DNA from: Trypanosoma brucei
Taxonomy: Eukaryota
Direction: 5' to 3'
NCBI GenBank assembly: GCA_000002445.1
Contig: AE017150.2
Location: 512,001 to 576,000 of the forward strand
DNA length: 64,000 nt
The notes below the pieces were generated by a model. It was not told the origin of the DNA and did no database searches. It saw only the letters and a program-made list of their open reading frames with translations. Both the position numbers and the translations under genes were made by a program. The first letter of the stretch is position 1, and each line of letters starts with the position of its first letter. Shown piece after piece: positions 1 to 28,303 of this stretch.

Positions 1-3000
1 GGTCACAGCAGCTGCGACGCGGGAAGGGAGGTACCAAGGAGCTCACGGCGGACATTTTTTACCACCAATAAACAATTAATCAAAACTGGCCATACAGACA
101 AACAGAGCCATTACAACCAGTAGCATGCTGCCTGACAGCGGAAGACAGCAATACAAGGGCAATCACAAATTTAAACAGAAGCGCGTATCTCCACAAAAAG
201 ACACATCATCAGGATGTCATCCAAGCAGTCATGAAAGCAGCTTCGAGAGAGTAAAGGAAATAGCAATTCGAAAACCCCCATGCAGCGAGTTAAGCGGGGA
301 ATAATGCTGTGGTATGCAGGAAATGGGGTTGAGACAAACAGATCCATCCAAAGCGGTAGTAAACAATGGAAGAGCAGGGACACTGCATGCCCAGTAAAGG
401 TTGCCTTAAACATACTACTGGTGTATAAAAAACAATACAATATACAACACTGTGGTCGGTTACGTTTACATTATTCGCTACCAACGGTGAACCGACGCCG
501 ATAGACGATCAATGACTAGAACTCGGCTAAAAGTAGTGCCAACTAGGGAACATACCCACCAAATAGACGTCATCAAACAAGCAAACACGAAGAGTGTGGC
601 ATACGGTGAGAAGTGACGGCCGCTGCGCCGTCATGCCATCCAACTAAAGGAGTGTTGAAAGGCACTTTGGAACATGGTCGATCGCAGAAAAGAAGGGTTC
701 TTTTATCCCATCTGTTAGTGTTTCCTGCAGAGCAGAATATGCGGGAATACAGACAGCAGCTTGGTATCCGACTGCAGTTAGTTGGCAGAAGCGACCTCAG
801 ATACTTGATTGAGGCGGTCTCGCAGGATGCAGTGAGAAACTATCGCTTAAGGAGTCAGCTCCACTTTCCACCAAGAAACTGTCAACCCACATCCCGTCAC
901 TTCGTAACAACGGTGCTGTGGAAGACAGTACCAAATCTTCACTGCCACTAAAAAAATGCACGGAAAGAGAGAGAGGCCTCTGTAGCCGTTTCAACTTTGT
1001 CGATGCCATCAATGCTACTTTCAAACCTGGCGGTACAGAATACTACCAATAAACTCAGCATATTCACGACATTTCTTAACCACAAGCAATATTTCACTGC
1101 TTAGTGCCAGCATTAAAGCATCCCTCTGGCCTTAAATATCGTGCGTTGCCGCACCTTCGTTCTTGGTTATGCAGTAGCACTCAACTTCTGCTGCCCTGAC
1201 CCACCCTGGTGGCCCAGAACACAAAACAAATGGCGCTCTCTTAGTGCGGCTACTTGCTGTGCGTGAAGGTATACTCGTTCTGCGGACTGCCGTTTCATCG
1301 GATTGTTTCCATGAGGTTGCAACACTTCCATTGCCGCATTTTCCACAATTTTATTCGCTTGCTGTCGTCTCTATTGACGATACTGTGCTCGATCGATGTG
1401 GTCGTCAGCAGCTGGAGTACTCAAGCCATGTGCCTTCCTGAAGCGCGACGTGGAAGGCGCCTGCACGAACACACACACCGGTCAACTACGGCCCACCAAA
1501 ACTCTCTCTTATTCGATCGCATGCTCTTTCACGAGAAGTGGTGCAGCATTTCTACACTTCCAACTGTACTCCGCTTTAGGTAGAAACAACGATGTGCGGC
1601 CGCGTTAAGGTCATTGTCACAGCGAAATGAAGTTGCCCCATCGAACGGGTTGTAGATTGCAGTAGCAACGGGTGCCAAAAGCGCCACGAAGTTAACTTCA
1701 CGAGGGGAAGGAAACGAGTTAAGTCCCTCAAGCTTTTCACTGCCTGCCCGCAGGGTTGTTTCCGCTGAAAAAGAGGGTTCGAACGCCGACCCCGCGGTTC
1801 AGCCTTTACTTTTTGCTGCAACAGGCGTCAAAAACTGATGCAATAACTCATTTGGAACTTCGAGCGGGTTGAACGCGGTGGCTAACAGAAGGCGAAGGCA
1901 ACCGGCTTACGTGTATCAAGCGCCAGATGGGCACCACCCAGTTTCCTTATCCCACATACCAACGATCCATTGACGCACTTCGGTGCAACAGGTCACTCGC
2001 GCTCATTTTGCCATTGCTTCGTCCGCGCTGCACAAGACGCTTACAACAGGAATCGTTCCTTACTTACCTTTCCATACGTTTAGTCCACGCATACCTTGGC
2101 GGGGCCTTTTCCACCCACTTTCTCAAATGTGTCAGCGTCCCCGATTGACCGTCTAACCCCACCTTGGCCTCTTCTTTGTCTTGTCCCCCTTTACATGCGC
2201 TTGGGTTCTGTGCGTTGGCATGTCATCCGTTGCAGCACTGAGCCTGTTCTAACTGGCAGAAGCGCCGCCCGCTGCACTTTCTGACTCTATCGCAGCTTTT
2301 GATATCACAGCTCCAGCCGACGTAGACCCTCGGTCCTTGCTGTTTGGATTCATGCATTTCGTGGGTAAGGGTCGCAGGACTTCTGCGCCTGGTTTCAAAT
2401 CTTCCAGCCTAAACAGCTTGGAGCGGCGGCGTTCCAGTCGTCCCCAAGGCGCCAACCCTCGCACCGCATCCTCACTTACCCCGCAGCCAGTGTGAGATAA
2501 CACAAGGGGCTCGTACTGTAGCAGTAGGGGAAGTTCCTTGCACTTTATGTATTAGTTGCTGCTCGGCTCTCCCTTGTGTGTCCGCCCCTCTGCTGCGTAT
2601 GTTTGTCTAGGGAATTTTGTCCCATACGTGTTGTCTGCGGCGCAGTCGTCGCGGTGCCCTTTGTGCCAGCGTTGACGAAAGGAACGTTTCATCACCCACA
2701 GCCTCTTTTATCATATCGTCGGTCGGGTGCTTATTGTTGGTGTGCGACGGAGTCCACGGTGTGTGGGCACACTTCCTCTGAGGCCGGCTGCGTCTGTACC
2801 ATGGCCCGCTCTTTGGCCAAGGAGCACCGGTTTGCTGTAAATTATGCGCAGTTTACGCCGTTGCGTCATGGTTGGAGGTTGCCAGCTCCTGTTGCCGTCG
2901 GTCTGGTGCCTTTCGTCGTCTTAAAAATCGTCTGCGTCTCAGGGGGCCGGCTTCGCTGTTTTTTGATTTGGTCTCGCTGTGGGGCTACCGGGCCCTTTGG

Positions 3001-6000
3001 GTGCAGTATATGTGATATTTCCTCCAGTCCGCGCTCCGCGAGCTTGTTTGATGGGTATGGCGTTGCCTGCGCCCTCTTGTCCGTAGGCATTGGTGCCCTC
3101 CCTTGTCACGGCGGCTGGCCACCTTCGCTACATACGTTGTGATTGTTTAGTGCTTCAGGTTCTGCAGTATATCAAGGTCTGGGCTGGGTTATGCGGGCGC
3201 GGCCTCGTTTGTGCGGCGTCCGACTCGATTGGGCCACTTGGGGTGCGTGGAGCCGCGTACGATATATGGTGGTTTGCTTAGTAAGGATCGTCGTGCCTCC
3301 TTTTAAGTATTTCTAGCGGTCAGCCCCATACAGCGCCTTCGTGGTTGCCTGGAGAAACCACCATCGGCTTTGTGCACGTTCTTGGCGCAGCTCTCTGCGT
3401 GTGTTCCTGGAAGGCGTGTGTTTGGCGTATCATGTCTTTGAGCAGTTGTTCGTTTGTCTTGGGGACTTTGACTGCAACTTTGGCAAATGTGCTCTTTCCT
3501 TTTGGTGGCATTTTTTTTGTATATCTCTGGGCCGGATGTTGTACTTCTACTTTGCTTTTTCTTCCCCCATGGCAGTCGTTTTAAGACTTGACTGAGGAGA
3601 TTGACCTCGTGCGCTTGGTAGTTTCTTAGTGACCTGTTTTCTAATTGTTGAATGGCTTTCTCTTACCCAGATGTGTGCGTTGTGACAGCGAGCGGCTGTT
3701 ACATTATGATGAAGTCGTTGTTTCCTTAGAAGTGAATCACGAGATGGACTCCCGACTGAACCATTTTGGTGGAGTCGAGATGTTCTTTATTTTAAATTAT
3801 TTTTATCAATCTTTTCTTTTGCCGACTCGCAGCACTTGTACTACTCGTGCTTGCGGACTCTAGGAAAGAGGGGAAATTTCGTTTCGGGTTGTTCTGTAGA
3901 AGATTGTACGATAGCATCCTAAATATTCCTTATGGCTGTTGGGTAACCGCCATGGTGCATTGTTTTGTGTGATTAAAAGCGCATTGATCTCCGCAGTGTT
4001 CTCTATTTCTTGTTTTGGTTAATAATGCCTCCTTTTTGTTGTACCCGTGGCTTTTTTTGTTTGAGAGGGATTTAACGCTTTTTTCCACAGTGTGTACTGT
4101 CGTGTGTGTGTGAAAGCCGACGTTCCACCATTGCCCCCGTGATGTGACCTCCGTTTTCCCCCTTTGAGAGCATTATGTGCACATTTGCGGGGAGTCAACG
4201 TTTTTTTGGCGTGGGTAAATGTTTAGGTGTAAATATTTTGGTATTGCGATTGAAGGACGGAGGTTGCCTCGCTGTGTTCGGAAGCCTGATTTACACTGTC
4301 AACAACTTACAGGACCCTCAATAGTCGTCGGAGTGCGTGACCAAGCTACAGTGCACGCCTTTTGCTGTTGTACTTCCTTGTATTGCAGGGCAACCAGGAT
4401 ACTTACACGGTTTAGTAGACAGCCCTTTGTGTGGCGTGTGACAGAGGGCTGAAAAGCTACCTTCGATCCGTTTTGAAGGAATGGACGTGCTTCACGGAGG
4501 GTTTCGTCTTTTAAATCCCCCTTTCGAACTCGTTTAAAGCTTTTTCCATAGAGTGTTATGTTGCCCTTGCTATGCTTCTTTTATTACTTTTACCGGCAGT
4601 GGTATGCGTTTTATCTTTTCTCCTTTAGTGACTTCCGCTCCTACGTAGCGTGGGGAAGTTACAGTATCTTCATAATGTGTGGATATGGTGGTTGCTTTTC
4701 TTTCAAATCTTTTCCGTTAGGCATGTGTCTCGGTTTTTTCGTCGTGCCTCTGAGTGCGATCGCTGTTGCCACTATTTCCAATCCTTTTCAAAAGCCGAAT
4801 GAAATAATTGGTCGTGCTGTTTGCACTTTTCCTGTATGCATAGGTCGCTAACAACCTACTAACCCCTTGTCATCTCGTTTGTGTTGCAGTGTAAAACTTG
4901 CTGTGTTGGTGCTCGGTCTGTGATTGCGGCTGCTGGCCCGTTTGCTTCACTAACTGGTGACGGCTGTCGGGACACACATGCCGAGGAGTAAACGTATAAG
5001 CTTGTATCTTGTTTTGTGCTTTCGGAATTTTCGTGAATTCCTTTCTTCCTTTCGCACCTTCTCTGACTATTTTCCTCTATTGTGTTCCAACAGCACCGAG
5101 AAGAGGTGTTGCTGCAACTCCCTGCATGCACATGGACGACGGCGTTGTTTTTCTTTTCCATCAATATTCTTCCAGTGGTATTTCTCCGCTCGGACCGTGG
5201 TTGTATTTGGTTGTACTGAAAGGTGATGGAGGTTACACACACCACTCTTTTGTATAGTTATGTAACCGTGGCAACTGCGGGGAGCCCTGCTGGTAATTTG
5301 TTTTGGTTGCTAATGGGGGTTGTCTTATACGTTTTTTTCTTTGCACGGGATATGGTTATTCGTGTAATCTTTGTTTTCGGCTACTGCCCTTATTTCTGTT
5401 TCCTGCGCCACTCGTCTCTGTTGGAAGTTGCACGGGGCGACAGGACCAGTTTTGGTAAGATGGGTCGTGGACCTTTCGGGGTTATCTCCGTTTCACAACT
5501 GGTGGATCGCGATAGTAATATATATGCCTGCTGTTCTTTTTTTTTATCTTTGACAATAGAATCGAAATCCTTACTTGTATCGGTATAGATTCTTTTTACA
5601 AATTTCCATTTCCGTCTCTGCTTGTGTTCTTAGTTCCTGTTTTTGCATTTCGGTGATGCAGGTGCGTCGGTGCGCACTTCGTGCCGATCATCCAGCGGCC
5701 GGCTCTACCTGATTTTTTGAATCAGACATGCTCTTCGTAATGTTTGGTCATTGTTTGGCAGTGTAGTGTACTTCGTGAGATAGGTACGATCTTTTGTTTT
5801 CGTAGTAACGCTTTCCCTATGTTCTCCGATACGGTGTAATACTTGGAATCGGTTGTGTGCTTTATGTTTGCCACTGTAGCGAAGCACTGGGTGATGGTTG
5901 GGGTGTAAAAATATGTTATGGGATCCGTCAAGTTGCTTTGTATTTGTTAATTTCCGTATGGGAGGATGTTGCTCAATGTGGCTGATACTTTGTGGTCTCT

Positions 6001-7904
6001 TGATTTTGTTGTTCGCATGGGCCGACGTCGCCGAGGGAGCAGTAACCCATCGTGACGCTGCGTGTGTGTGATGATTGCACGGAGGGAAAGACTTTCGTGT
6101 TAGTTTCCTTCGTAGGGCTCATATCGTACTTCCGTGTATTGTTCTTTATATTGTGATCCTAATTTCTGTAACATCTATTGGCTCGCACTCCCTCTTTTTA
6201 TTTGTTTCTCCGGGGATTTTTTTTAACTTTCCTCTGCTGGTGGACCCTTTGAGTGCAACGCAGACTGTTGTGATGATGCCGGTGGGGTTTGAGAATGGGA
6301 AGAAGATGCCTCCGGGGAGAGTAGTTGAGCGACTATTTTTGGCTCTTTCGGATTGCATCTACCCTAATTCTTTGTGGGGTTCCACTTAATTCTGCTCTCC
6401 GTTGCTTCGAAGAAACTTCCTTTCTGGCACGCTAATGTTCAGCGTCAGCTTTGTGGCGCCTTTATTAACGGCACTTTGTGCTACCCTTGGTCCGTGTTTC
6501 TGTACTATTCTTCTTTACTGCACGAGCGTGCAGTGTCGCTCTGTCGGACATTACAACATATGCTATGCATATCGTCTCCAGTTTTTTCTTCGTGTATTTA
6601 CGGGCTGGTTGAGGGGGCCTTTTCGATGTAACTTTATTCGTTTTCTGACGCTTTTTCACAGGTGCTTGAGAGTCACCGACAATTTGTCCATCCGATACAT
6701 ATCTTTCGTTTCCTGAAGCCTTTTTTCTTCAAAAAAAAAGGCTGATTAACTGGGTTGTGCTTGTTCATCCGTCATTTGGGATCTAGCTCTTCTTTTACGT
6801 TTTAACGAGCTGTGTTAGGTCGGTATATCTTGAGAGTATGGTGTGCTTGGCGTGTAGTTGGGAGGATCAGGGAGGTGTTTTTGTTTGTGTCCATTAACTA
6901 ATCGGCTTGCTCGGTTTTGTTGTTTTGCGCAGAAGAAGCATGGTGTTGCTGGGTTGTGTGAGTCGGATGCATGCGAGTGATGAAGCAATGAAGACAGTTT
7001 AGAAGAGGTCTATGAGAATATGTTACTGTGTTTATTGCTCCGCCACTATACTTTGTTAATGATAATGGACACAACGGTAACTATGGGGCAGTTACCAACT
7101 CCCTTAGGTCAGATTGGTTTACTGCTTATTTCGCTGTGCGCATCCCGATTGTTGAAGCGCACTTTCTTCATTTGTGCATATCATTTTCCGAAAATCGAGG
7201 GAGCATTGTCAACCGTTTTTTTGTTACGGCTAGTACGGCGACATCAAGTTGGTATGAAGCTATCTAAATGAAGGTGATCGCAATGAAAGCAGAGGACGGG
7301 TGGCCGACGATGCCCATTTGGGAAATGCGTTCTCACTCATTCGTTCTTTCCACTAGGGCTTTCTGCGGTTGATTTCCTCTATTTGTGGGTTACTTGAAAT
7401 CAATTTCCACATTTTTATACCTTTTTGCAAACGTGTGACATCCACCTGCTGTATGCGTCCACCTGAAGTTAGTCCAGACACTTAAGTTAACATTGATGTA
7501 CATTTTCTACCTCTTTCATTGCTTTACCTTGTTACATTCATTAAGCACATTGCTGTGTGGCTCACAGCAGGGGCCTTGTGCAAACAGAAATAGCTCCCGT
7601 TTTCTGTGATAGGAGGCAATAAGGTGTGAGTCAAAGTTCGGGGAGATTGGGTTCTGCTTCCCGATAGGACCCGCCTCTAGCGCAGTTTGGTGTTAAAAGA
7701 TCTTGTCGAAGGAATTTGTACTGGTTGAGGAAGAGGAGTTGTTGGCTTGAGATATACAACAGCTGTTTACCGCATTTGCACATTCTGAACAGGCGTGCCT
7801 GTGGCCCATAAGCAAGGAATTGCTCACGGTATTCTCTGGAGGGGTACCTTTCTATTTCCGGGCTGATAGGCGCTTTTTCGTTCAGCCACTTAACGTCCCC
7901 CGTG

Positions 7905-10900
7905 ATGCTCAAAGTTGCTCCGAGTGAGTTGCAGTTTGGCACGCTGGCGGTGAATGAGACACCCGCGTATTGTCGTTTCTGTGTTCAGAACGCTGACACA
8001 CATGAATCTTTATCGGTGAAGTTGACGGCTGCGACTTATTCATCTTGCGTCCGCTTCCAGCTTTGCGACGACGCACTGCTAGTAGACGACGATGACGCTG
8101 ATGGTGGTGGCATGTACGGATCTTGGCAATGCTCCGACACACTAGGGCCAACGCCGAAGTTTTACAACGCTGCCTACGATAGTATTAATTTGATTGAACT
8201 ACTTGAACTTCACCCGAACGAAGCACGAGAGATCATTGCTATCTTTAGTCCCGATCCTGAGGTATTTCCCAATGTTGTGGAGCGTACGGCACCGACACTG
8301 GTGAGTGGTACCATTCAACTGACGTCTACTTCACTCCCAAGAGCAACCCCGGCGCGTTCACTAACGTGGAGCGACGATGTGGGTTGCGTCACCTCCTCGT
8401 GTGCGCCGTCTCCCCTGCTTTGCGCTGGTGACAAAGGCTGCTCGCCTCTATTTTCCTCGCAACCTACACCGCTGTCCCGCACTGCGGACGGTACGTTAAA
8501 GAGCAAAACAGTTACATCAGCCAACCGCGGCTTTCTTCACGCCGCCGTCCGGTCGGAGACTCTGACCCTCCCATTCAGTGCCACCGTGTTTCTTTCTGCA
8601 TTCACTGTGTCTGTGTCAGAGCTCCAGGCAACGATGGCTCCCAGTAGAACGCACCTGATGGGATTCAAAATAACGAATATTTCACCGCTTCCGCTGCAGC
8701 TCGTCATTCGTATGCAAACGATGCCCCACAAAAACGTTGAATTAACTGTCTGTGAAGAAGACCAGTTCGAAGTGTCACTGATCGGACGGGTGTTAGTGCT
8801 TGATGGCCATGCCTCGATGAATTTCACTGTCATCGTCCGCACTGCTGCTGTTTCCGAACTGGCCGGTAGTGGCGCGATAATGAAACGGTTTTGTCACCGC
8901 ACTGTTCTTCAATGTGATAATCTTCGTGATGCACGCAACTCAGAGCTTATATCGGTTAATGTGAATGTTGTGCCTGAGCACCTTCAGAAACCCCTGGTTA
9001 GCGTGGCTGACCCCTACCTCGACTTCGGTGCTGTGTACCGAGGTACGCGGGTTGTGCGGGAGGTGAGTATTTGCAATGTTAGCCGTGAAGATTTAACGGT
9101 GCGCTTGCTTAACCCCCGGCCACCGCACTGCGAAGGTGTACTAACCCTTGTTCGTGGTGCCAGAAGTGAAGCTAGTGGCGGGAAGGACATAAAGAGCGTA
9201 AAAAATAGTACCCCTGTTAAGATCACTGACAAGAAGAAGAGTAGCACCGCTGTCGTAGGACCATACGATAACATTGTACCTGCTGATGAGCTCGTAATGG
9301 CAGCTCAGAAGGGCTCATTGCAGGTTGGCGTCATGTACGTTGCGTCCACGGACTCAGAGTATAAAGGGACCGCGAACCTCAAGTTTGAACTGGATTTCGT
9401 CATCACAGGATATGAGAGTGGTGCCAATAGCAGCAGGCGTGAGCAACGTGTGGTTGTTCGGTGTGTAGCGACACTCTTTACGAGCACCATCGTGGCTCCG
9501 CTAACTAATATCAACTTCGGAGACTGTCCTGTTGGCCAGACACGCCGGGTCACATTTCATATTGAGAACCCTTCGCTACTACCAACTACCATCAACGTGC
9601 AGCTTCGAAGTAAAATTGTCTCTATTGAAGGGGTGCCCGCGCGGCTCTCCGAAACGGGCGCACCTGAAACAGTCGGGGAGTTTTCCATTGCGCCTCAGAG
9701 CAGTCTGCCTTTGACGTTGCGGATGACCCCACAACGTGTCAATCCAACGTACTGCAAGCAGCTTACTGTTGTAAACGTATCAAATCCTGCGGAGGACCGT
9801 CTCATATTAACCATTGAGGCAAATAACATGCAACCCGCCGACATGGAGCTTCATAATGAATTCTATACGTGTGAGAGTCGGCCCCTGTGCTACGAGGATG
9901 GAGTGAACAAAACTAGGGACGGGGCTAGTGGTGGTAGCAGTATTGAAGCGGATGAACGTAGCGGTGGTGGTGCAGCACCGCTGCGTGCTATTGCAAGTGT
10001 TCCGCTTTTTGTTGCCTACAGGCTGCTGTCGAGGGTGAACTATCCTCTCGAGCTGCAGCTTTCTACGACAGGTGCGGAGATTGGTACATTTTGTTTGGAG
10101 GGGATGCCGTCGGCGGACTGGGAGGCACTTGCTGTGGAGCTGCACTCATGCTGTTGCTTTGGCGGCGAGGATACGGCTAGTAAATTGGCACCTGAGCGTG
10201 CGGAGGAGGTGCGAGACGGAGTAATGCGTGCGTTGAATAACCACGCTATGTCTGTAAGTTCGGTGGTACTGGAACCGCGAGGCAGCACCACTTTGTATGC
10301 CTGTATTCTGCGAAATTCAATTGGCGGCGTGGACGCTGTGACAAAGGAGGATGGTATTAATATAGGCATAGAGCACGTCGAACTGCGGCGTTTTATGCGG
10401 CTTTCGTACCGGGTTTGTTCCACACGCTTTGAACTGGGCGGCCAGAGGGCTAAACACTTCGGAGAGGTAAATGTCGGTGAGCGGAGGTCTACAAAGGTGC
10501 CCATCACCAATCAGTGCAATTCTCTGTTGCTTCTACGCGTGACGAAGTCACGAAGTGTTATGGCTGGCTATATTCGTGTGGATGGCTCAGATCGCAATTC
10601 TATTTACTTTCGCATTCGTCCGTTCGCTACGAAAGAACTGGAACTAACCTTTTCTCCGGGGCTGAAGGGGAGCCTTGAGGAACGTATTCAGTTTGTTAAT
10701 ATCCTCAACCCTGGCAACGAAGTTGTAATTACTGTAAAGGCTACTGTCACTAAGGCCGAAACTTTCGATGTAAGCCCTGATTCGTGGAGCTTTGGTCTCG
10801 TTTCCGTGCCAATGCTTCAGCCGGTTACTAGTGGCGTCGCAACAAACGTCAGAGGATCGACTTTAGTGGCGGGAAAGGGAAACGGAGGTGCTGGCAATGA

Positions 10901-13900
10901 CGATAGTAGCCGCCAAGTGGCTCGCGTCGGAGCCCGTTTCACTGTGTCTAACACAAGTAGCGCGCGCCGTGCCTTGCGGCTGAAGCTTGACACCACGGTT
11001 AGTAACAGCAGTGTGGGTGGAGGAAATGAAAATGCCCATTGCCCATTGGAGCGTTTTTTCAGGTTTGAGGGGATTGATGTTCGGCTGCAGCTGGAGATGG
11101 AACGGGGTGGCGCGTCTTCCGGTTCTTCCCGGAAGCTGGAGGAAAAGATTGAGAAACTCGAGCAAAAGTTGAAGATATATCGTCGTAAGAACAAGGTTGA
11201 TAAAGTTGCTGCTGCAGTGCGCCAGATTGAGGAGCTTAAACGCGCACTGATGGGCGAGGTTGTGGATATCAACACACTTGAGCCTGACGATGGTGACACA
11301 AAGAGTAGAGATCCCCAACAACAACGACTTCAGGACTTGAAGTCCCCCCGTGAAACCCCCGAAGGCGAGGACGAGAAGTTTGCAGCCTCCAAGGTGCGGT
11401 TGCAGGAGCACGGTGAGCTCCTCTCAATGCTTCTTCGGGATGGGATTGCGTTATCCGAAATGAATGCTGGGGAATCAATTATTCTCGTGCTGGGGATTAC
11501 ATGCACCCGGACGGCTGAGCACATTCCGGCAGCACAAAGTGGCATTTTAACTTTTGTGCTGTACGAGGCAAACGACACGGAGGCAAGCAGAACCATACCT
11601 GTCGATATAACACTTGTGCGTGTAGAGGGGGAAGCAGACATCGGAACAGTGGTAGGAGGGGAGAGGCCGTTGGCCCATGCGGGCAAAGCTGGTGGAGGAT
11701 CAAGCACCGATGCAAATTTGCCGGGGATACTGCCGCCGACGCCTCGTTCTCCGTCACGTCCAGGGAGCGACAACCCATCGCCGATGCAGGCTCCTCCAGA
11801 AACATCAGGAGGAGCCGCACAACTGACGCGACCAGGACCAGCCTCACAGTGTGATTCCACCTCGTTTATATCACTTGAGCTGGGTGATGTTGTGGGAGTA
11901 TCATCTTTCATGTGCTTTCCAATGATTTCATTAAACAACTGCGTTGTGCAAGAACGGTGTGATTTTACATTTTACGTGCGCACTACTATGGACACCTCGA
12001 TTGTAGTACTTGAGCCCTTTCGATGTTGCGGCCCCGGTGTCGTTACCAGCGGTAGCTACGGTGGGTGTATGGATGCCATGGTTGATGCCTGTGGAGCTAT
12101 GGATGACCGTGAGATTTGTAAGGGATCAGCGGCTGTTAGCCACATGGCGACCGCCAGGGTTGTTGGTGAAGAAATGTCGGCCCTTTCAGGGCCTTGCTCT
12201 ACGTTGAGAGCGACAGTAAGAACTTTGGATGCGTCTTTCAGGTTTTCTCGACGGAGGGGTGCTCTCCACTCGCGACAGCCGCTTTCCATCAACGTTCAGT
12301 GCACACCGAGTAGCGGTGGTCCGCAACGCTACTTTATCCCCGTCGCAAACCTTCAGGACGAGGGCAACGTGACTTACCTCGTGGTGAGCCTTAATCCATC
12401 GCCAGTGGATGATGGATGCCTGCTTAAAGTGGCTCCAAGCACTTTGAGCATGCGCGACATCGTCCTGCCATGTGACACTGCTCTTTTGGACGTCCAATCG
12501 TTTGCTGTGCGTAGCCATGTAGGCCGGCCGCATGCGTTACTTATTCGATCAACTAGGCCGGCACTTGTCAGACTGTTCGAGGACGCCAAATGTAGCGTCC
12601 CACTGAAAAACCCCGTTAGGTGCTCATTTTCCGAGAAACTTAAAGTTTACGTGCAGCTTCGCCCAAGCGAACATTCTCGAAAGCATGCAAGTCGAGTGGT
12701 GACCGCCGGCATACTCATTGAGGCTATAGTCTCTACCCGGGGCCTCGACTGTGGGCATAGTGGTGACCCTATTCACGGAGGTCAGTGCGGTTATGCTATT
12801 CTCGCGCATTCCGTTGTCCGCGTGTCTGCACGCATTGGCAGCGGTGAACTGGTGTTGCGTGAATCATTTATCGATATGGGCTCCGTGGCTCCTCACTGTC
12901 ATCAGGCCCAAACCACTCTAACTGTGTGGAACCCCTCCGACTGCTTTGAGGTGCGGGCTCGGTTGGTTGCCTCCATGCCGCTTACCGGCATTGGCATTCC
13001 CGAAATTACCCTCCCCCCGGGTGGTAAGGTTGATGTGCCCATAACGTTGCATATTCCGACTCCGGGACTTGTCCGTGAGTCGATATCTTTGCATAATCTT
13101 AGCTGCAAGCAGAAGACGCTGAGTGTGCGACTTAATGTGTTGAGACTTGATGAAGCGATATCAGTAAGCGTCGTCCCATATGAAGTCCAGATGCAGGGAG
13201 AAGCGCTGCTGCATTCAACCGCGGTTCATCCCGGATGTGCTCAGGATGGTTGTGGTGTCGTAGCTTTCCCCACCGCTGCTGTTGTATGTGGGGAGGGCGG
13301 TGTGTTTCGCCTCCATAACCCCGTGGTTAGCACCGCCATGCATGTGACAAACAACAGCATGAGGAGCCTCATTCTTATAGCAAGGAGCAGCGCCCCATTT
13401 GTTTTCGGGCATCCTGATACCACTTTGCAGCTGTCGGGAGTGCCACCGTATCACGAAGATGGCTTCGTTTCTATGTACCTGCCCTCTCCACCCGATTCTT
13501 ATCCCTCTTCTTTGGCTGAGACGGAGACAGAGACGGAGGCCGAGGCGGAGATGAAACCGCTTTCACATTCGTATACCCGCGGTCGTCTGCTGCTTGATGC
13601 GCGTCACACACAGGCGGTCGCGTGGACGCTTACATCGACTCCGCCGTTTACTCTAAAGCAGAAGCAGCGGCTGCTGCGACACGAGCTGGTAACAGTGGAG
13701 GTCGCAGCGTACATCTACGTTGGTCAAGTCGTGGAGGAAACGACAGGTTTTCCATTTAATGACATGATGTTCTCGGCGGTGCGGCCCTTGCCAATGGCGG
13801 AGCAGTGCGTTCTCGTACCAAAGTTTTTGCTTAACTTCGCGGTGAGCGAAGGCCGCGTGGAACCATCCGTTATTGACCTGGGCGTTGTTGTTGTGAATAA

Positions 13901-16900
13901 GGGCCACGTGGGTAGTAGTCCGCTAACGTCATCCACCGCGGAAGTCCCTGCGAAGCAAACTGATGTATTGTGCAAAAACGAAGTCGATGTCCCAAAATTG
14001 CGACGGCAAGCTGAAATATCAACAGCCACTGCACCACGTGCGGAGAGAAAGGATGGAAACAACCTAAATCATGCCATATCAATACGGTTGGTGAACTCTT
14101 CTTTTGTTTTGCCTTTGAACTTAAGCGTGGAGTGTGAACCCACGGTGAGGTTTGCGAGCAACCGTGTGACGGTACCTCCTGGTCAAACCGTTGTGGTGGA
14201 GGCTGTGCTCGTTCCGAAGCTGATCCAGTCTGAGGGGCCATTTCGTCTTTCCGTTTACTTCGTGAATGAACAGAATCCAGAGAATGACATGGTTGTCTGC
14301 GTCACGGGCCAATACTACCAAAAGTCGTTTAGGCTTTCATGGGACGGAGTCGTTGATGGCCGCAAGGAGTCGCTGTCGATGCAACCGCTTCGTTTGGAAG
14401 ACATATCCACCGCTACTTCGGCCGTTCTCTCTCAAACAAAAATCACAATGACGGCCGTAGAGCCAAACATTGAGGTTGGAGTACGGGCAGTTGTGAATCC
14501 AGAGCTTGAAGGTGTTATTCAGCTTCAGGCACTGCAGTATGACGCCTCTTCCACCCTGCAGAGCGTTATATTTGGCCAAGTGCCACTGCTGGCCATGGCT
14601 GGAAACACCAATCCCAACAGCGACAGCGTCGCTGGTGTGTCTGTTAACAGTGGTGGAGCCCCTGGCAACGGTGGGAGCAACAATGGCAGTGGGTTAACGG
14701 CTGGCGCTGTGGGCACGGGCTCGAATACTGGTGGAATAACTCCGGTCGGTGCCGATTCTGGGGGCGCTTTACCCGCTGTGGGTGTGGCGGGCAGCGCTGG
14801 AGGTCCGCTGAATGCAGGTTGTGGTTGTGCCGCAGACAATCCTGCAGCGCCGTCAGTCCCAGGAAGGGGCGTAGTGGTTTGCTCAAAGGATCATCAACAA
14901 TTTCGGTTGCGTTGCGTACTTGTTAAGGAGGATTTTCCAGTGTTGGCGGGTGTTTTCTTCGGGCAGCGAAAGCATAAACACACGGCCGATATTCTTCGCG
15001 AGAGACAGGGCCTAACATTCACCAAGCTTGAGGAGTTAAAGTCGCAACGTTCCGCGGTATCCCAAACGATGTGGTTAGGAACACTCCACTTCTCGAATGA
15101 GGTGACGGGAGGTGATGAGGAGGTGCAAATATTTAGTTCACTTAGCGCGTTCTGCACTTTCAAGGTATCGTCCAAACTGGTGCTCCGGCCACGGTGCTCC
15201 TTGACTTCGGGATCCGCCGTGGACGGTGCAACTGCAGTAGCACATGTGGGGACGGCGACAGTAGCTCCCGAGGCGATGTACGTTTATGAAGGTGAGTTGG
15301 TTGTCTCAAATCTCTGCCAGGAGCACGTTGTAAGGCTTTCCATCACCCCGTTGCTAAATTGTGGACATCACGACGGTGTCGTTCTTCAGTGCGTATCGTG
15401 TGAAGGATCCAAGGATACGGCAGGGATGTCTGCGGATGATGCCTCTGCGACGGGAAATAGCAATAATTTCGCCAGCAGTGACATTGGTTACGGTGACGGT
15501 GCTAACCTTGCTGATGTATGTACGAAAAATGACTCACGGGCGTCCCTACCAGTTTCTAGTAGTGCTCATCTACCAGAATTACCGCAAACAAACGTGAAGT
15601 CCCCTGGTACCGCCTCACAATCAACGGTAATAATGCCGATATCTCCTCAGAATACCGTGCGTGTGCGGGTGTTGCTTTGCATAGACAGAGCGCGTAACAA
15701 ATCGAGTGTTGAACAGGGCGCTGGATTGGCCCTGTTTGATGAAGCCGTTGCGTGCAGCTTCGCTGCCGTTCGTATCTCACTTGCGCCGGCAGATGATAAC
15801 GACCGAGAGAAGGAGCAGCAACAAAAGCAGCAAGAACAACTTACCAGGCAACCCTTTCGACGTGCGGATTCCTCTGGTGTTTTGGCTAGTGGAAATTCTG
15901 GCTCCGTTTCTTACAAAGCCGTAAAGGACAACATCTCGGAAGGAGAGAAGGGGGTTGCAGCAGACAGGGAGGACACTGCAGTAGGGAATGCTGCCCCACC
16001 CGGGAGCAACCCGTTGGATGTAACACCCGATGTTAAACCTGACCGCCCCGAGATCCTCTCTTCGCAGCTCACACGGTCCCACACTGTGCTCTCCCTTAGC
16101 GGCAACTGCACCGAAGTGCGCGACTGCACGGGGGTGTACACCTCTAGCTTTTCTTTCAGCAAGGACTCCGTGCCCACTACAGACATCACTATCACTAATC
16201 ACCTCAGTGACGGTGCGGTTGAGTATGCCGTTGCTGTCATTTCCCAAGGCCCACAGCCATGGTTGCTTCTTCCAGTTTCCACCGCTGTGCTGGAACCTGG
16301 GGAGACCCAACCACTTCGGCTCAACATTCTCTCCACAGATGCTGGTTCGTTCGTTGGTCACGTGAGCATCAGCAGTGGTATCACCCCTGGAAAGCTAATC
16401 CTGTTGAAATTGAATGCTGAGGTGTTCCTTCCCACTGCGGGGGAGGGTCTGTTTGAAATTCTTACTTCCAATGGGCAGCGTCTCTCTAGCGGAATGGAGA
16501 AAGATATTTTCGTTGGGAGGCTCTTTGGGGACAAAACTCACCGTGCCCGCGTGGCCCTTGAGATTGTGAACCGCTCCTCTGTTCCTCTTGAGTTCCCTGT
16601 GAGTGTGGGGAAGTCGATGCGCATGGAATACATAAGTGCTCCGGGGGAGGAGGTGAGCTCAGCAATAATGAGGAACAATATCTCCGATACCGCAGGTGGC
16701 CGCGACGTTGATCTGAAAACTGGCCCACGCACCGCGAAGGAAGCCGATGAGGAGGATAGCAAGCAGCAGGAACAACGCGGAGCTTACAATGATGGTGACA
16801 GGGGTTCCGGTAACGTGCCTGGTGCCTCTCATCCCCGGTGTTCCGTCCGACTTCTCGTGTGTCATTTACACAGCGTGTCGGCGATGCGTGGCGAGCGATA

Positions 16901-18194
16901 CTTTGTTGTTGACCCAAAGTCTCGACTGAAGGTGGCCTTTTTGTTGGTGTGTGATCACCTACAGTTACCAGGGGGTCTTTCAGCATCCGGTGAGGCTGAG
17001 GTGGTGCTGACTTGCAAGCAGGCCCGTGACGCACGATACGTGTTTAAGACATACTTCCGTGTCTGTAGACCTTCTTTCTCCGTGCAGAGGGAGCAGCTTT
17101 TCACTCAGGTGGAGAACTACACGGTTGCCCTTGCGGTGACTAATCTTAACCCTCAGGAGTCTCTAATTTTGTTCCGGACCGCTTCACCCGTGCTCGTTGT
17201 CCAAGTTCCGACTGAGCAAGAAGGGGAGGACCCAGGCTGTGCTCTGATTACTATTGCAGGTGGGGCGACCGCGTTTTTTAACGTTCGGCTTGACATTTCG
17301 CGGCTTGCTTCCTTGTACAACTGGAGTAAGTCGGGAAATAACAGCGGCAACGGTGATGATACCGCTAACTGTGATGTGGATACTTTGTTGCAACCGTTGT
17401 CTGAGCATGGCGTGCTACTCAATGTCCGCAACCCAAGTGAACACGTTCGAGTGGAGTTTTGCTTTTTCCCGTCCACGACTGTTCAGGGACCTTCCGCCTC
17501 GTCCTTGTCAGCTGCGGCGGTGGCAGCGGTGTACCCTGTTTCGCAGTCGATCAAGTTGTCGCGCCGACTCAACTGCGAAAAGCGGCTGTACCGCTTTGTT
17601 CAAGAGTTTTCACGTGTGTTGTCCGAAGTATCAGAGTTTCTTCTACCAGAGATACAGGAGCATGCCTCTCTTGAGGGGTTTCTCCTTTCACCAACTGTAA
17701 ATGATGGCACGAGTGGTGGGACTACGACGGGTCGCGGCTCCGGATTCGGTAACAATTGGAATAATGGTGATAGTACTCATGGAGGCGCTGTTGGAAGTGG
17801 TGGTAGCACTGCTGGAGCTGCCAGTCATGAGAGTGTCAGTGGCGCAGGGCATCCGGGTCGGAAGGACAGTTTGGAGGGGAGGGAGGAGGGAGATGAGGAT
17901 AACCGTGTGAGTTTGTTGGAGGATCGAATGCCTTCCTCTCAACGCTCCCACTGCTGGCGGGCTCTTCATGGGTTATTAGTGGACCTTTCTTGGTTGGTGG
18001 AGGAGCTTGTGTATTACTCCATTATGCTCAGTAACTCCAGGGCCATCGAAGCGTACGGCGTCTTTCTTGCAACGTCGGTTAGCGGTCATCCACTGCTACG
18101 TCTCTGGCGGCAACACCGGAAGAAGTTGCCCCCAGCGTTGCCCCTTGCAATCTTCGAACAATTCCTCGAGGCAATCGATGCCCTCCCTTGTTGA
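7905..18194 (+). CDS. Giant (3,429 aa) protein built from repeated ASH/MSP-like Ig-fold modules, with a central coiled-coil segment and Gly/Ser/Asn low-complexity stretches. Probably a flagellar/axonemal hydin- or CFAP-like protein.
   Basis: The 10.3-kb ORF is uninterrupted. The track start at 7902 is GTG; the first ATG is at 7905. It sits downstream of a T-rich spacer. One motif recurs through the translation: 'LQFGTLAVNETP...', 'LDFGAVYRGTRVVREVSICNVS', 'INFGDCPVGQTRRVTFHIENPS', 'FELGGQRAKHFGEVNVGERRSTKVPITNQCNS', 'FIDMGSVAPHCHQAQTTLTVWNPS' and 'IDLGVVVVNKGHVGSSP'. This hydrophobic-x-F/L-G-x-V-x-x-G...N-x-S pattern is the hallmark of ASH/MSP domains. There is also a coiled-coil stretch, 'KLEEKIEKLEQKLKIYRRKNKVDKVAAAVRQIEELKRAL'. 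Confidence 0.8.
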   Translation: MLKVAPSELQFGTLAVNETPAYCRFCVQNADTHESLSVKLTAATYSSCVRFQLCDDALLVDDDDADGGGMYGSWQCSDTLGPTPKFYNAAYDSINLIELLELHPNEAREIIAIFSPDPEVFPNVVERTAPTLVSGTIQLTSTSLPRATPARSLTWSDDVGCVTSSCAPSPLLCAGDKGCSPLFSSQPTPLSRTADGTLKSKTVTSANRGFLHAAVRSETLTLPFSATVFLSAFTVSVSELQATMAPSRTHLMGFKITNISPLPLQLVIRMQTMPHKNVELTVCEEDQFEVSLIGRVLVLDGHASMNFTVIVRTAAVSELAGSGAIMKRFCHRTVLQCDNLRDARNSELISVNVNVVPEHLQKPLVSVADPYLDFGAVYRGTRVVREVSICNVSREDLTVRLLNPRPPHCEGVLTLVRGARSEASGGKDIKSVKNSTPVKITDKKKSSTAVVGPYDNIVPADELVMAAQKGSLQVGVMYVASTDSEYKGTANLKFELDFVITGYESGANSSRREQRVVVRCVATLFTSTIVAPLTNINFGDCPVGQTRRVTFHIENPSLLPTTINVQLRSKIVSIEGVPARLSETGAPETVGEFSIAPQSSLPLTLRMTPQRVNPTYCKQLTVVNVSNPAEDRLILTIEANNMQPADMELHNEFYTCESRPLCYEDGVNKTRDGASGGSSIEADERSGGGAAPLRAIASVPLFVAYRLLSRVNYPLELQLSTTGAEIGTFCLEGMPSADWEALAVELHSCCCFGGEDTASKLAPERAEEVRDGVMRALNNHAMSVSSVVLEPRGSTTLYACILRNSIGGVDAVTKEDGINIGIEHVELRRFMRLSYRVCSTRFELGGQRAKHFGEVNVGERRSTKVPITNQCNSLLLLRVTKSRSVMAGYIRVDGSDRNSIYFRIRPFATKELELTFSPGLKGSLEERIQFVNILNPGNEVVITVKATVTKAETFDVSPDSWSFGLVSVPMLQPVTSGVATNVRGSTLVAGKGNGGAGNDDSSRQVARVGARFTVSNTSSARRALRLKLDTTVSNSSVGGGNENAHCPLERFFRFEGIDVRLQLEMERGGASSGSSRKLEEKIEKLEQKLKIYRRKNKVDKVAAAVRQIEELKRALMGEVVDINTLEPDDGDTKSRDPQQQRLQDLKSPRETPEGEDEKFAASKVRLQEHGELLSMLLRDGIALSEMNAGESIILVLGITCTRTAEHIPAAQSGILTFVLYEANDTEASRTIPVDITLVRVEGEADIGTVVGGERPLAHAGKAGGGSSTDANLPGILPPTPRSPSRPGSDNPSPMQAPPETSGGAAQLTRPGPASQCDSTSFISLELGDVVGVSSFMCFPMISLNNCVVQERCDFTFYVRTTMDTSIVVLEPFRCCGPGVVTSGSYGGCMDAMVDACGAMDDREICKGSAAVSHMATARVVGEEMSALSGPCSTLRATVRTLDASFRFSRRRGALHSRQPLSINVQCTPSSGGPQRYFIPVANLQDEGNVTYLVVSLNPSPVDDGCLLKVAPSTLSMRDIVLPCDTALLDVQSFAVRSHVGRPHALLIRSTRPALVRLFEDAKCSVPLKNPVRCSFSEKLKVYVQLRPSEHSRKHASRVVTAGILIEAIVSTRGLDCGHSGDPIHGGQCGYAILAHSVVRVSARIGSGELVLRESFIDMGSVAPHCHQAQTTLTVWNPSDCFEVRARLVASMPLTGIGIPEITLPPGGKVDVPITLHIPTPGLVRESISLHNLSCKQKTLSVRLNVLRLDEAISVSVVPYEVQMQGEALLHSTAVHPGCAQDGCGVVAFPTAAVVCGEGGVFRLHNPVVSTAMHVTNNSMRSLILIARSSAPFVFGHPDTTLQLSGVPPYHEDGFVSMYLPSPPDSYPSSLAETETETEAEAEMKPLSHSYTRGRLLLDARHTQAVAWTLTSTPPFTLKQKQRLLRHELVTVEVAAYIYVGQVVEETTGFPFNDMMFSAVRPLPMAEQCVLVPKFLLNFAVSEGRVEPSVIDLGVVVVNKGHVGSSPLTSSTAEVPAKQTDVLCKNEVDVPKLRRQAEISTATAPRAERKDGNNLNHAISIRLVNSSFVLPLNLSVECEPTVRFASNRVTVPPGQTVVVEAVLVPKLIQSEGPFRLSVYFVNEQNPENDMVVCVTGQYYQKSFRLSWDGVVDGRKESLSMQPLRLEDISTATSAVLSQTKITMTAVEPNIEVGVRAVVNPELEGVIQLQALQYDASSTLQSVIFGQVPLLAMAGNTNPNSDSVAGVSVNSGGAPGNGGSNNGSGLTAGAVGTGSNTGGITPVGADSGGALPAVGVAGSAGGPLNAGCGCAADNPAAPSVPGRGVVVCSKDHQQFRLRCVLVKEDFPVLAGVFFGQRKHKHTADILRERQGLTFTKLEELKSQRSAVSQTMWLGTLHFSNEVTGGDEEVQIFSSLSAFCTFKVSSKLVLRPRCSLTSGSAVDGATAVAHVGTATVAPEAMYVYEGELVVSNLCQEHVVRLSITPLLNCGHHDGVVLQCVSCEGSKDTAGMSADDASATGNSNNFASSDIGYGDGANLADVCTKNDSRASLPVSSSAHLPELPQTNVKSPGTASQSTVIMPISPQNTVRVRVLLCIDRARNKSSVEQGAGLALFDEAVACSFAAVRISLAPADDNDREKEQQQKQQEQLTRQPFRRADSSGVLASGNSGSVSYKAVKDNISEGEKGVAADREDTAVGNAAPPGSNPLDVTPDVKPDRPEILSSQLTRSHTVLSLSGNCTEVRDCTGVYTSSFSFSKDSVPTTDITITNHLSDGAVEYAVAVISQGPQPWLLLPVSTAVLEPGETQPLRLNILSTDAGSFVGHVSISSGITPGKLILLKLNAEVFLPTAGEGLFEILTSNGQRLSSGMEKDIFVGRLFGDKTHRARVALEIVNRSSVPLEFPVSVGKSMRMEYISAPGEEVSSAIMRNNISDTAGGRDVDLKTGPRTAKEADEEDSKQQEQRGAYNDGDRGSGNVPGASHPRCSVRLLVCHLHSVSAMRGERYFVVDPKSRLKVAFLLVCDHLQLPGGLSASGEAEVVLTCKQARDARYVFKTYFRVCRPSFSVQREQLFTQVENYTVALAVTNLNPQESLILFRTASPVLVVQVPTEQEGEDPGCALITIAGGATAFFNVRLDISRLASLYNWSKSGNNSGNGDDTANCDVDTLLQPLSEHGVLLNVRNPSEHVRVEFCFFPSTTVQGPSASSLSAAAVAAVYPVSQSIKLSRRLNCEKRLYRFVQEFSRVLSEVSEFLLPEIQEHASLEGFLLSPTVNDGTSGGTTTGRGSGFGNNWNNGDSTHGGAVGSGGSTAGAASHESVSGAGHPGRKDSLEGREEGDEDNRVSLLEDRMPSSQRSHCWRALHGLLVDLSWLVEELVYYSIMLSNSRAIEAYGVFLATSVSGHPLLRLWRQHRKKLPPALPLAIFEQFLEAIDALPC

Positions 18195-18988: not shown

Positions 18989-19432
<444 letters not shown>

Positions 19433-26135: not shown

Positions 26136-26166
26136 GAATATATGTAAAAGGGAAGAAGGGAGGGAC

Positions 26167-26205
26167 GGCAGCGGCAGCGGCAGCGGCATTGGCATTGGCA
26201 TTGGC
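26167..26205. repeat. (GGCAGC)3(GGCATT)3 hexanucleotide tandem repeats just downstream of the kinase stop codon.
   Basis: Sequence 'ggcagcggcagcggcagcggcattggcattggcattggc'. Confidence 0.9.
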
Positions 26206-26508
26206 GATGACGGTGAAGGTTATGATGATGATGATGGTTGTGGAGCCAACAGTGAATGTAAGGGGAGAAAGGAATTTTATAAACGTGAGTGTGTATGTGC
26301 TTCCACTGGTGTATTTCTTTGTGAGACTTGGGGATTTTTCTGGGTTTCCCTCTCTTTTTTTTTTTGGTTTCGTAGGTGTTTTTGTGCGTACATAAATATA
26401 TGTGTTTTTTTCTTCCTTTTTGCGCTTTTTGGCAGTATTTGAGTTCCCAGGGTGTTTTTTAGTGTGTGTGTGGGTGGGCGACATGTAAAAAAAATATCAA
26501 TGAACAAG

Positions 26509-26539
<31 letters not shown>

Positions 26540-27632: not shown

Positions 27633-27663
<31 letters not shown>

Positions 27664-28276
27664 TTGGTCTCTTTATATATCATATGTATTAATTTGAGTG
27701 AACGAAAACAAAACAAAACAGAACGAGAAGGGGGAGGGGAGGGGAGGGAGAACAAAAGAACAACAACACCAATGAAAAAAAAAAAGAAAAGAAAAGAAAT
27801 AAAGGAAGAAAGAAAGAGAAAAAACAACAACAACAACAACAACACGTAAATTGCTGACGTGTATGTCATTTTTCTTCTCTGCATGAATTATCTCCATTGA
27901 ACTTTTCTTCAATATTAACACATAAATGTTTATATATGTTTATATATAAGTTAATGTGTTATAAATATGTATGAATATATAAATATATGAATGTTTCATT
28001 TCATCATCTTTGCATGTTTAGGCAACACCAAGCATAAAAAGGGAGAAGCTGAAGCCGAAAAGAAAAAAGAAAGAAAAGTAAAAAAGCAAAAAAAAAGTAA
28101 TTTAAAAAGCGCGTTTCAATATGTTAGATATAGCAATGATAGTACGGATAATAACAACATTATGTCAACACATTCATATATAAATGAATAAATAAAAATA
28201 TTTATATATATGCAAGGTCTAAGGAAGGTCAGCGAACACGACAATATTAATGCAGGAGGATGATGCTGATGAAACA

Positions 28277-28303
28277 AACAACAACAACAACAACAACAAC
28301 AAC
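28277..28303. repeat. (AAC)9 trinucleotide microsatellite.
   Basis: Direct reading. Confidence 0.9.

What the first reader, a model, noticed from the sequence alone, without database searches (positions are those of the whole stretch)
1..7904. ORF-free 7.9-kb leader with a strand-composition flip: candidate divergent strand-switch and RNA Pol II transcription start region
No ORF longer than 190 codons exists in 7.9 kb, yet the sequence is not simple repeat. Positions 1-~1200 are A+C-rich on the + strand, for example 'caaacaagcaaacacgaagagtg' and 'accaccaataaacaattaatcaaaactgg', which makes them G+T-rich on the minus strand. From ~2500 to 7900 the + strand becomes strongly G+T- and T-rich, for example 'tgtgtgtgtgaaagccg' and 'gttttgtgtgattaaaagcg', with long 'ttgt' and 'gtgt' runs. 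In trypanosomatids the sense strand of UTRs and spacers is pyrimidine/GT-rich. A flip like this is what is expected where two polycistronic units diverge. GT-rich tracts are reported to act as dispersed Pol II promoters and H2A.Z deposition sites in African trypanosomes. The first gene of the + unit, the giant ASH-repeat gene, begins at 7905.
Basis: partly seen in the sequence, partly recalled or inferred. Interest (0 to 1): 0.6.

Follow-up and report, generated by a model that had tools for sequence, protein, structure and literature searches.

The report
Known divergent transcription start region, T. brucei

Summary
Window 1-7811 has no stop-to-stop ORF above 204 codons. The + strand flips from A-rich (AT skew +0.36 in 1-600) to T/G+T-rich (AT skew -0.32, G+T 0.61 in 2500-7904). 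The V-shaped cumulative skew beat all 5000 block permutations (z = 8).

The window is T. brucei TREU927 chromosome 2, 512001-576000. Published spliced-leader sites match the sequence base for base with that offset. The giant gene at 7905 is Tb927.2.2650. The nearest genes to the left, Tb927.2.2590 and Tb927.2.2580, lie on the minus strand 0.6 and 1.7 kb outside the window.

Kolev et al. 2010 (Table S14) list Tb927.2.2590->2020 (-) and Tb927.2.2650->3330 (+) as 'Divergent' Pol II units. Two rare processed RNAs, Tb2.NT.19 (-, starting at window 279) and Tb2.NT.20 (+, 5762-7416), place initiation between 279 and 5762.

The T. congolense orthologue shows the same gene-free, skew-flipped upstream region, with no nucleotide conservation.

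Caveats:
- GT runs are short and there are no G-runs.
- Published promoter-associated 10-mers are no denser here than in ordinary spacers.
- I did not see chromatin data for this locus.

The parts
1..279 (-). 5' part of Tb2.NT.19. This is a rare (0.31 RNA/cell) minus-strand trans-spliced, polyadenylated transcript at chr2 512279->511610, which continues 390 bp left of the window. Its spliced-leader acceptor sites are at window 240 and 279.
   Evidence: Kolev 2010 Tables S4 and S7. The AG (site 240) and AT (site 279) dinucleotides and an upstream minus-strand polypyrimidine tract (245-260) were verified in the sequence.
1..1200 (-). Minus-sense arm of the strand-switch region. It is A/A+C-rich on the + strand, so T/G+T-rich on the transcribed minus sense. 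It is the inner part of the start region of the Tb927.2.2590->2020 unit.
   Evidence: AT skew is +0.36 (1-600) and +0.21 (1-1200). The falling limb of the cumulative skew begins about 1.5 kb left of the window. Minus-strand polyY tracts lie at 245-260 and 960-976. Three published TSR 10-mers lie on the minus strand at 1221-1470, just right of this arm, in the neutral zone.
600..2400 (.). Compositionally neutral switch zone between the two arms. It is the inferred boundary between the two opposed start regions.
   Evidence: The cumulative keto skew is flat here (-309 to -380). Minima are at 1089 (T-A), 2163 (G+T-A-C) and 2488 (G-C). There are no Pfam, Rfam or tRNA hits.
2000..3400 (+). GC-rich patch (GC 0.55-0.58, higher than the coding sequence) at the inner edge of the + arm. 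It contains the longest chance ORF (2528-3139).
   Evidence: A similar patch (GC 0.56-0.59) sits at the same relative place in T. congolense (L002:5200-5800). The ORF has no Pfam match.
2500..7904 (+). Plus-sense arm. It is a T- and G+T-rich non-coding sequence that forms the start region and 5' leader of the Tb927.2.2650->3330 unit.
   Evidence: AT skew is -0.32, G+T 0.608 and T 0.353. Six of the seven + strand polyY tracts found between 2168 and 6203 lie in this arm (the first, at 2168-2182, is just left of it), against one on the minus strand. Sixteen published coding-strand TSR 10-mers lie on +, against one on -.
5762..7416 (+). Tb2.NT.20. This is a very rare (0.09 RNA/cell) + strand trans-spliced, polyadenylated transcript. 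Acceptor sites are at 5762, 6254 and 6819. Its poly(A) site at 7416 lies 130 nt upstream of the first gene's acceptor site.
   Evidence: Kolev 2010 Tables S4 and S7. AG dinucleotides were verified.
7505..7546 (+). Polypyrimidine tract and main spliced-leader acceptor site (AG at 7544-7545, exon starts at 7546) of Tb927.2.2650. The 5' UTR is 359 nt.
   Evidence: 105 reads at chr2 519546 in Kolev 2010 Table S4. The sequence was checked.
7905..18194 (+). Tb927.2.2650, a 3429-aa conserved hypothetical protein with ASH/HYDIN-like Ig repeats. It is the first annotated ORF of the + unit.
   Evidence: Exact protein match to XP_951560 / AAQ15722. Faint ASH/HYDIN Pfam hits. Listed as the first ORF of the unit in Table S14.

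Best explanation
Window 1-7904 is the larger part of an 8.5-kb divergent strand-switch region on T. brucei chromosome 2. The region spans chr2 511358-519905, between the start codons of Tb927.2.2590 (minus strand, 642 bp left of the window) and Tb927.2.2650 (plus strand, window 7905).

RNA polymerase II starts in both directions inside this gap and transcribes the two gene clusters away from each other. Each arm is T/G+T-rich on its own sense strand. The arms meet in a neutral zone at about window 600-2400.

The outermost mapped spliced-leader sites are at window 279 on the minus strand and 5762 on the plus strand. Both initiation zones must therefore lie between them. The two rare 'novel transcripts' look like processing by-products of the primary transcripts' 5' leaders. 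Each ends about 130 nt upstream of the acceptor site of the first real gene, as expected if polyadenylation is coupled to downstream trans-splicing.

Shown:
- gene orientation;
- outward-facing splice sites;
- the skew flip and its significance;
- the listing as 'Divergent' Pol II units.

Inferred from the literature on such regions in general:
- dispersed, directional initiation helped by GT-rich sense-strand sequence;
- a 5-10 kb domain of H2A.Z/H2B.V and acetylated H4.
For: - Identity and coordinates. Proteins match TREU927 chromosome 2 exactly. Thirteen published splice sites fit the window with an offset of 512000.
- Divergent orientation. Gene calls on L001, strands and read counts in Kolev 2010 Table S4, and Table S14 'Divergent' for both units. 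All ORFs of 200 aa or more that correspond to genes in the rest of the window are on +.
- No coding or structured-RNA content..
- Skew flip.; z = 8.
- Oriented signals. PolyY tracts and TSR 10-mers follow the flip.
- Size is typical. Divergent regions of 5-10 kb with two opposed promoters (PMC11796357) and start domains of 5-10 kbp (PMC12227686).
- Conservation of architecture. The T. congolense orthologue has at least 10 kb without a called gene or long ORF, with the same sign change in AT skew. Only the coding sequence aligns.
Against: - No primary chromatin or 5'-end read data for this locus could be inspected. Support for H2A.Z/H4K10ac here comes from general statements that all divergent regions carry them.
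- The published TSR-enriched 10-mers are sparser in the + arm (about 3 per kb) than in ordinary downstream spacers (up to about 13 per kb).
- The most enriched published motif, a G10 run, is absent.
- The left neighbours were read from a T. equiperdum contig, not from the TREU927 record itself, although coordinates and splice sites agree exactly.
Confidence: 0.93

Rival explanations
1. The skew is only a passive footprint of transcription direction, from transcription-coupled mutation bias and selection for polypyrimidine tracts. On this view the GT-rich sequence is not itself the promoter, and initiation is set by something else, such as a short sequence-specific core promoter or chromatin. 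This rival concerns the mechanism only. It does not dispute that the region is a divergent start region.
For: The density of published TSR 10-mers in the + arm is lower than in ordinary intergenic spacers of the same unit. GT runs are short and there are no G-runs. The skew is conserved in T. congolense while the sequence is not alignable. Sequence-specific core promoters have been reported in such regions (Cordon-Obras 2022, as cited in PMC11796357).
Against: Synthetic GT-rich elements drive orientation-dependent transcription and H2A.Z deposition (Wedel 2017). All sub-fragments of two native start regions were active in reporter assays.
Confidence: 0.3
2. [quoted passage not shown]
For: In Tiengwe 2012 (PMC3607257), 70% of 88 divergent regions bound ORC1/CDC6, centrally between the two H4K10ac peaks. 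Nineteen mapped origins centred on divergent regions. A distinct unskewed zone of about 1.8 kb exists here.
Against: Nothing locus-specific was found. The paper's held supplements do not list this site. Only a minority of divergent regions are active origins.
Confidence: 0.3
3. The interval is an ordinary long head-to-tail spacer or 5' UTR inside one + strand unit, with read-through from upstream.
For: The right 5.4 kb looks like ordinary + sense spacer.
Against: Both left neighbours are on the minus strand, with well-supported minus-strand splice sites. The left end has the opposite skew. Both units are listed as 'Divergent'.
Confidence: 0.01
4. The interval hides a decayed gene, a retroelement relic or an unannotated coding or structured-RNA gene. 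The GC-rich 2000-3400 patch with its 204-codon frame would be the candidate.
For: GC is 0.55-0.58, above coding level. The patch contains the longest frame in the region.
Against: Ten frames gave no Pfam match at E<=0.1. There were no Rfam matches even at E<=1 and no tRNAs. There are no repeats. Nothing aligns with T. congolense, whose equivalent interval is also ORF-free. Kolev 2010 lists no transcript there.
Confidence: 0.03

Closest known systems
T. brucei divergent strand-switch regions / Pol II transcription start regions (Siegel 2009; Kolev 2010; Wedel 2017)
   Same: It has diverging flanking units and a gene-free interval of 5-10 kb. The sense strand of each arm is G+T/T-rich. Rare SL-poor or low-abundance RNAs lie next to the first genes. 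This very locus is listed in Kolev 2010 Table S14.
   Different: Nothing of substance differs. There are no long G-runs, GT runs are short, and the density of published TSR 10-mers is modest. The first + gene lies about 5.4 kb from the skew flip, against an average of 2.7 kb from start site to first gene (PMC12227686).
Leishmania major chromosome 1 strand-switch region (Martinez-Calvillo 2003, as cited)
   Same: Pol II initiates in both directions between two divergent gene clusters, without a canonical promoter.
   Different: From my own knowledge, not tested here: the Leishmania region is far shorter (under 1 kb) and has C-tracts. The T. brucei interval is 8.5 kb.
Dispersed bidirectional promoters of other eukaryotes, such as CpG-island promoters
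   Same: Initiation is broad, there is no fixed motif, bidirectionality is intrinsic, and H2A.Z-marked chromatin is present (framing used by Wedel 2017, and Kolev 2010).
   Different: Here each direction feeds a polycistronic unit of dozens of genes. Those genes are resolved by trans-splicing and are not individually regulated.

Membership tests
Trypanosomatid divergent strand-switch region (dSSR) / Pol II transcription start region | Flanking protein-coding genes point away from each other (minus on the left, plus on the right) | tested here: met
   On L001 the left genes are on the minus strand with ATGs at L001:1469 and L001:374. They equal Tb927.2.2590 and Tb927.2.2580, which are on the minus strand in Kolev 2010 Table S4. 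Tb927.2.2650 and all downstream genes are on +.
Trypanosomatid divergent strand-switch region (dSSR) / Pol II transcription start region | No protein-coding, tRNA, rRNA or snRNA gene between the two units | tested here: met
   The longest stop-to-stop frame is 204 codons. There are no Pfam hits, no tRNAs and no Rfam matches.
Trypanosomatid divergent strand-switch region (dSSR) / Pol II transcription start region | Strand-asymmetric composition that changes sign within the interval (G+T/T excess on each sense strand) | tested here: met
   AT skew goes from +0.36 to -0.32. The V-shaped cumulative skew has z = 8, with 0 of 5000 permutations reaching it.
Trypanosomatid divergent strand-switch region (dSSR) / Pol II transcription start region | Outward-facing spliced-leader acceptor sites on both sides, showing transcription leaves in both directions | tested here: met
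   Published sites lie at window 240/279 (-) and at 5762/6254/6819/7546 (+). The dinucleotides were verified in the sequence.
Trypanosomatid divergent strand-switch region (dSSR) / Pol II transcription start region | Mapped Pol II initiation (5'-triphosphate RNA ends) in both directions | tested here: met
   This rests on a literature look-up only. Kolev 2010 Table S14 lists both units as 'Divergent' putative Pol II units. The text states enrichment at every divergent unit. The read-level data could not be viewed.
Trypanosomatid divergent strand-switch region (dSSR) / Pol II transcription start region | Enrichment of H2A.Z, H2B.V, H4K10ac, H3K4me3 and BDF3 over 5-10 kb | not testable with these tools
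   Only general statements are available. The supplements of PMC8559703 hold no coordinates for this locus.
GT-rich dispersed promoter (Wedel 2017) | Published coding-strand-enriched 10-mers over-represented on the sense strand | tested here: inconclusive
   The direction is right: 16 on + against 1 on - in 2500-7904, and 3 on - against 0 on + in 1-2500. The density (about 3 per kb) is not above that of ordinary spacers in the same window, and G10 is absent.
GT-rich dispersed promoter (Wedel 2017) | Orientation-dependent promoter activity and H2A.Z deposition in reporter assays | not testable with these tools
   This needs an experiment.
Trypanosome centromere | AT-rich tandem repeat arrays, usually with flanking retroelements | tested here: not met
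   There are no tandem arrays or dispersed repeats in 1-8000. GC is 0.42-0.58.

The most novel reading that the evidence does not exclude
A GC-rich patch of about 1-1.5 kb sits at the inner edge of the + arm: window 2000-3400 in T. brucei and L002:5200-5800 in T. congolense. It is conserved in position and composition but not in sequence. It could be the actual determinant of where initiation begins, or of where ORC1/CDC6 binds, rather than the GT-rich arms. That would point to a compositional rather than motif-based code for polycistronic promoters.
Probability: 0.08. Interest if true: 0.4.

Novelty: already known. Interest (0 to 1): 0.1.

Why it matters
It matters little beyond confirming that a reader working from raw sequence alone can recognise a trypanosome strand-switch region by its skew flip. 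The locus is one of roughly 90 such regions in T. brucei. It has been listed as a divergent Pol II start region since 2010 and falls under the general chromatin and promoter studies of 2009-2025.

The only mildly useful points concern how these promoters are specified, which is an open question. At this locus the GT-rich signal is no stronger than in ordinary spacers. The architecture is conserved with T. congolense, including a GC-rich patch at the switch, but the sequence is not. Two loci cannot settle that question.

Tried and rejected
- The homologue search with the full 3429-aa protein timed out.
- Searches with the N-terminal 800 aa and the C-terminal 900 aa each returned a single hit: a T. 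congolense fragment and a T. rangeli fragment. Synteny in T. cruzi, T. vivax and Leishmania could therefore not be tested.
- The search with the 124-aa N-terminus of the left neighbour found nothing. Its identity came from the literature instead.
- The exact look-up of the MEKK1 protein was not on record.
- The T. rangeli contig gives only 2.5 kb upstream and is uninformative.
- Cordon-Obras 2022 (sequence-specific Pol II promoters) and El-Sayed 2003 (chromosome II) are not held. I could not test for the published core-promoter element.
- The supplements of PMC8559703 and PMC3607257 contain no coordinates for this locus.
- Pfam on ten chance ORFs, Rfam at two thresholds, tRNA, tandem-repeat and dispersed-repeat scans were all negative. 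This rules out a hidden gene, RNA gene, centromere or mobile element.
- I first guessed that the 105-aa minus-strand gene was histone H4V. Its translation is not histone-like. H4V is in fact downstream, at window 19130.
Full report
**1. The observation**

The ORF-free claim holds. The mechanical ORF list gives nothing longer than 188 aa before the ORF at 7902/7905. My own six-frame stop-to-stop scan, which also counts frames running off the left edge, gives a maximum of 204 codons (2528-3139).

The region is not repetitive.

The composition flip is real.
- AT skew is +0.34 in the first 500 bases. It crosses zero near 1000-2000 and stays at -0.27 to -0.46 from 2500 to 7000.
- By segment, 1-600 has A 0.37 and T 0.175 (A+C 0.595). 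Segment 2500-7904 has T 0.353 and A 0.18 (G+T 0.608).
- Spacers between the + strand genes further along the window have AT skew -0.05 to -0.53. The right arm therefore has the ordinary + sense signature, and the left end has the mirror image.
- The cumulative (G+T)-(A+C) curve is a V with a flat floor from about 600 to 2400. Its minima are at 1089, 2163 and 2488 for the three skews.
- The depth of the V exceeds all 5000 shuffles of 100-bp blocks (z = 8).

Two small corrections apply. GT runs are short, with (GT)5 the longest. There are no G-runs of 6 or more in the + arm.

**2. Where the window comes from**

The giant protein, the kinase and other proteins are exact matches to T. brucei brucei TREU927 chromosome 2 entries, on a contig of 1,193,948 bp. 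ARPC4 at 42037-42648 is Tb927.2.2900 (PMC7581878).

Kolev et al. 2010 (PMC2936537) tabulate spliced-leader acceptor sites with chromosome coordinates.
- For Tb927.2.2650 the main site is 519546 with a 359-nt 5' UTR. That puts the ATG at 519905, which is window 7905.
- For Tb927.2.2720 (MEKK1; PMC8519429) the ATG is at 533630, which is window 21630.
- With an offset of 512000, all 13 published sites I checked fall directly after the dinucleotide reported in the table.

The window is therefore chr2:512001-576000.

**3. What lies to the left**

The exact-protein look-up returned a T. equiperdum OVI contig (L001) that is 99.5% identical to the window and extends 2111 bp further left.

Two genes are called there on the minus strand: a 105-aa ORF with its ATG at L001:1469, and a 1057-aa protein with its ATG at L001:374. 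Converted to chromosome coordinates, these ATGs are at 511358 and 510263.

Those are exactly the positions implied by the published minus-strand acceptor sites and UTR lengths:
- Tb927.2.2590: site 511483, 66 reads, UTR 125;
- Tb927.2.2580: site 510672, 118 reads, UTR 409.

The interval between the two diverging start codons is 8.5 kb, and the window holds all but its left 642 bp.

**4. Published status**

Table S14 of Kolev 2010 lists 'Tb927.2.2590 -> Tb927.2.2020, -, Divergent' and 'Tb927.2.2650 -> Tb927.2.3330, +, Divergent' among the putative Pol II units. The text says 5'-triphosphate RNA tags were enriched at every divergent unit and at all sites marked by modified and variant histones. 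It adds that initiation is intrinsically bidirectional.

Later papers describe such regions as 5-10 kb long, holding two opposed promoters, and as 5-10 kbp domains of H2A.Z, H2B.V and acetylated H4 (PMC11796357; PMC12227686). The size here is typical.

**5. Anatomy inside the interval**

The same paper maps two rare processed RNAs inside the 'ORF-free leader'.
- Tb2.NT.19 is on the minus strand, running from window 279 to 390 bp left of the window, at 0.31 RNA per cell.
- Tb2.NT.20 is on the plus strand at window 5762-7416, at 0.09 RNA per cell.

Each ends 127-130 nt upstream of the main acceptor site of the first real gene on its side. That is what coupling of polyadenylation to downstream trans-splicing predicts, and Kolev et al. 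give this explanation for RNAs at start sites. I read both as by-products of processing the primary transcripts' leaders; this is an inference.

They bracket the initiation zones. Minus-strand initiation must lie right of 279, and plus-strand initiation left of 5762.

Polypyrimidine tracts follow the same polarity. Seven lie on + between 2168 and 6203. Three lie on - between 245 and 1718, with one stray tract on - at 3862.

**6. Is the GT-richness special?**

I scanned the window with the 157 10-mers that Wedel et al. 2017 list as enriched on the coding strand of start regions.
- In 1-8000 there are 16 hits on +, all at 3551-7216. There are 4 hits on -, three of them at 1221-1470. The polarity is as expected.
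- The density, about 3 per kb, is lower than in ordinary spacers downstream, which reach 27 per 2 kb.
- The top published motif, G10, is absent.

This locus gives no evidence that GT tracts, rather than transcription-linked bias, define the promoter.

**7. Comparison with relatives**

The T. congolense orthologue of the giant gene lies on a contig giving 10 kb upstream (L002).
- No gene is called there and no frame exceeds 138 codons.
- AT skew is positive (+0.06 to +0.20) over 1-3500 and negative (-0.14 to -0.30) over 5500-10000.
- Only the coding start aligns with T. brucei.

The architecture is conserved and the sequence is not.

In both species a GC-rich patch sits at the inner edge of the + arm: 0.55-0.58 at window 2000-3400 and 0.56-0.59 at L002:5200-5800. 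With two loci this is only a lead.

The T. rangeli contig is too short upstream to help.

**8. Rivals**

- Read-through spacer: excluded by gene orientation.
- Hidden gene, RNA gene, mobile element or centromere: no support.
- Added role in replication: plausible on general grounds, since 70% of divergent regions bind ORC1/CDC6 centrally (PMC3607257). It was not tested for this locus.

**9. Verdict**

The feature is a textbook divergent strand-switch region that has been catalogued since 2010. Novelty: already known. Interest: low.

Noticed in passing
window 19130-19432 (+): A 100-aa histone H4-like ORF lies between the giant gene and MEKK1. Published coordinates identify it as Tb927.2.2670, the H4 variant H4.V that marks transcription termination sites. 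It has a strong acceptor site at window 18972 (813 reads). It is the second gene of this unit and was missed by the 200-aa ORF list.
   Followed up: partly
window 26136-34645: An 8.5-kb AT-rich block (GC 0.317, against 0.37-0.50 for the other spacers) sits inside the + unit. It is full of short A-rich, T-rich and TA microsatellites, with alternating A-rich and T-rich patches (AT skew up to +0.33). It holds only the rare transcript Tb2.NT.21 (28022-28985) and the 125-aa gene Tb927.2.2770 (29346-29723). There are no long tandem arrays, so it does not look like a centromere. The cause is unexplained.
   Followed up: partly
window 2000-3400 and L002:5200-5800: A GC-rich patch (0.55-0.59, above coding level) sits at the inner edge of the + arm of the strand-switch region in both T. 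brucei and T. congolense. The two patches share no alignable sequence.
   Followed up: partly
window 13527 and 16646 (+): Kolev 2010 records low-count spliced-leader sites inside the giant ORF (chr2 525527 with 1 read; 528646 with 2 reads and a GG dinucleotide). They are probably noise or minor internal processing.
   Followed up: no
L001:1152-1469 (-), 643-960 bp left of the window: Tb927.2.2590, the first annotated gene of the minus unit, is a 105-aa ORF of odd composition. I did not search it for homologues or domains. It has a well-used acceptor site (66 reads). It may be a non-coding or mis-annotated first transcript.
   Followed up: no
L003:2581-13268: In T. rangeli AM80 the orthologue of the giant gene is called as three adjacent ORFs (2274 + 559 + 717 aa). 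This probably reflects frameshifts or assembly errors rather than real gene fission.
   Followed up: no
whole window: The window is exactly chr2:512001-576000 of the TREU927 sequence, a 64-kb tile boundary. The strand-switch region is therefore cut by the tiling, and its left 642 bp and the minus-strand genes fall in the previous tile.
   Followed up: yes
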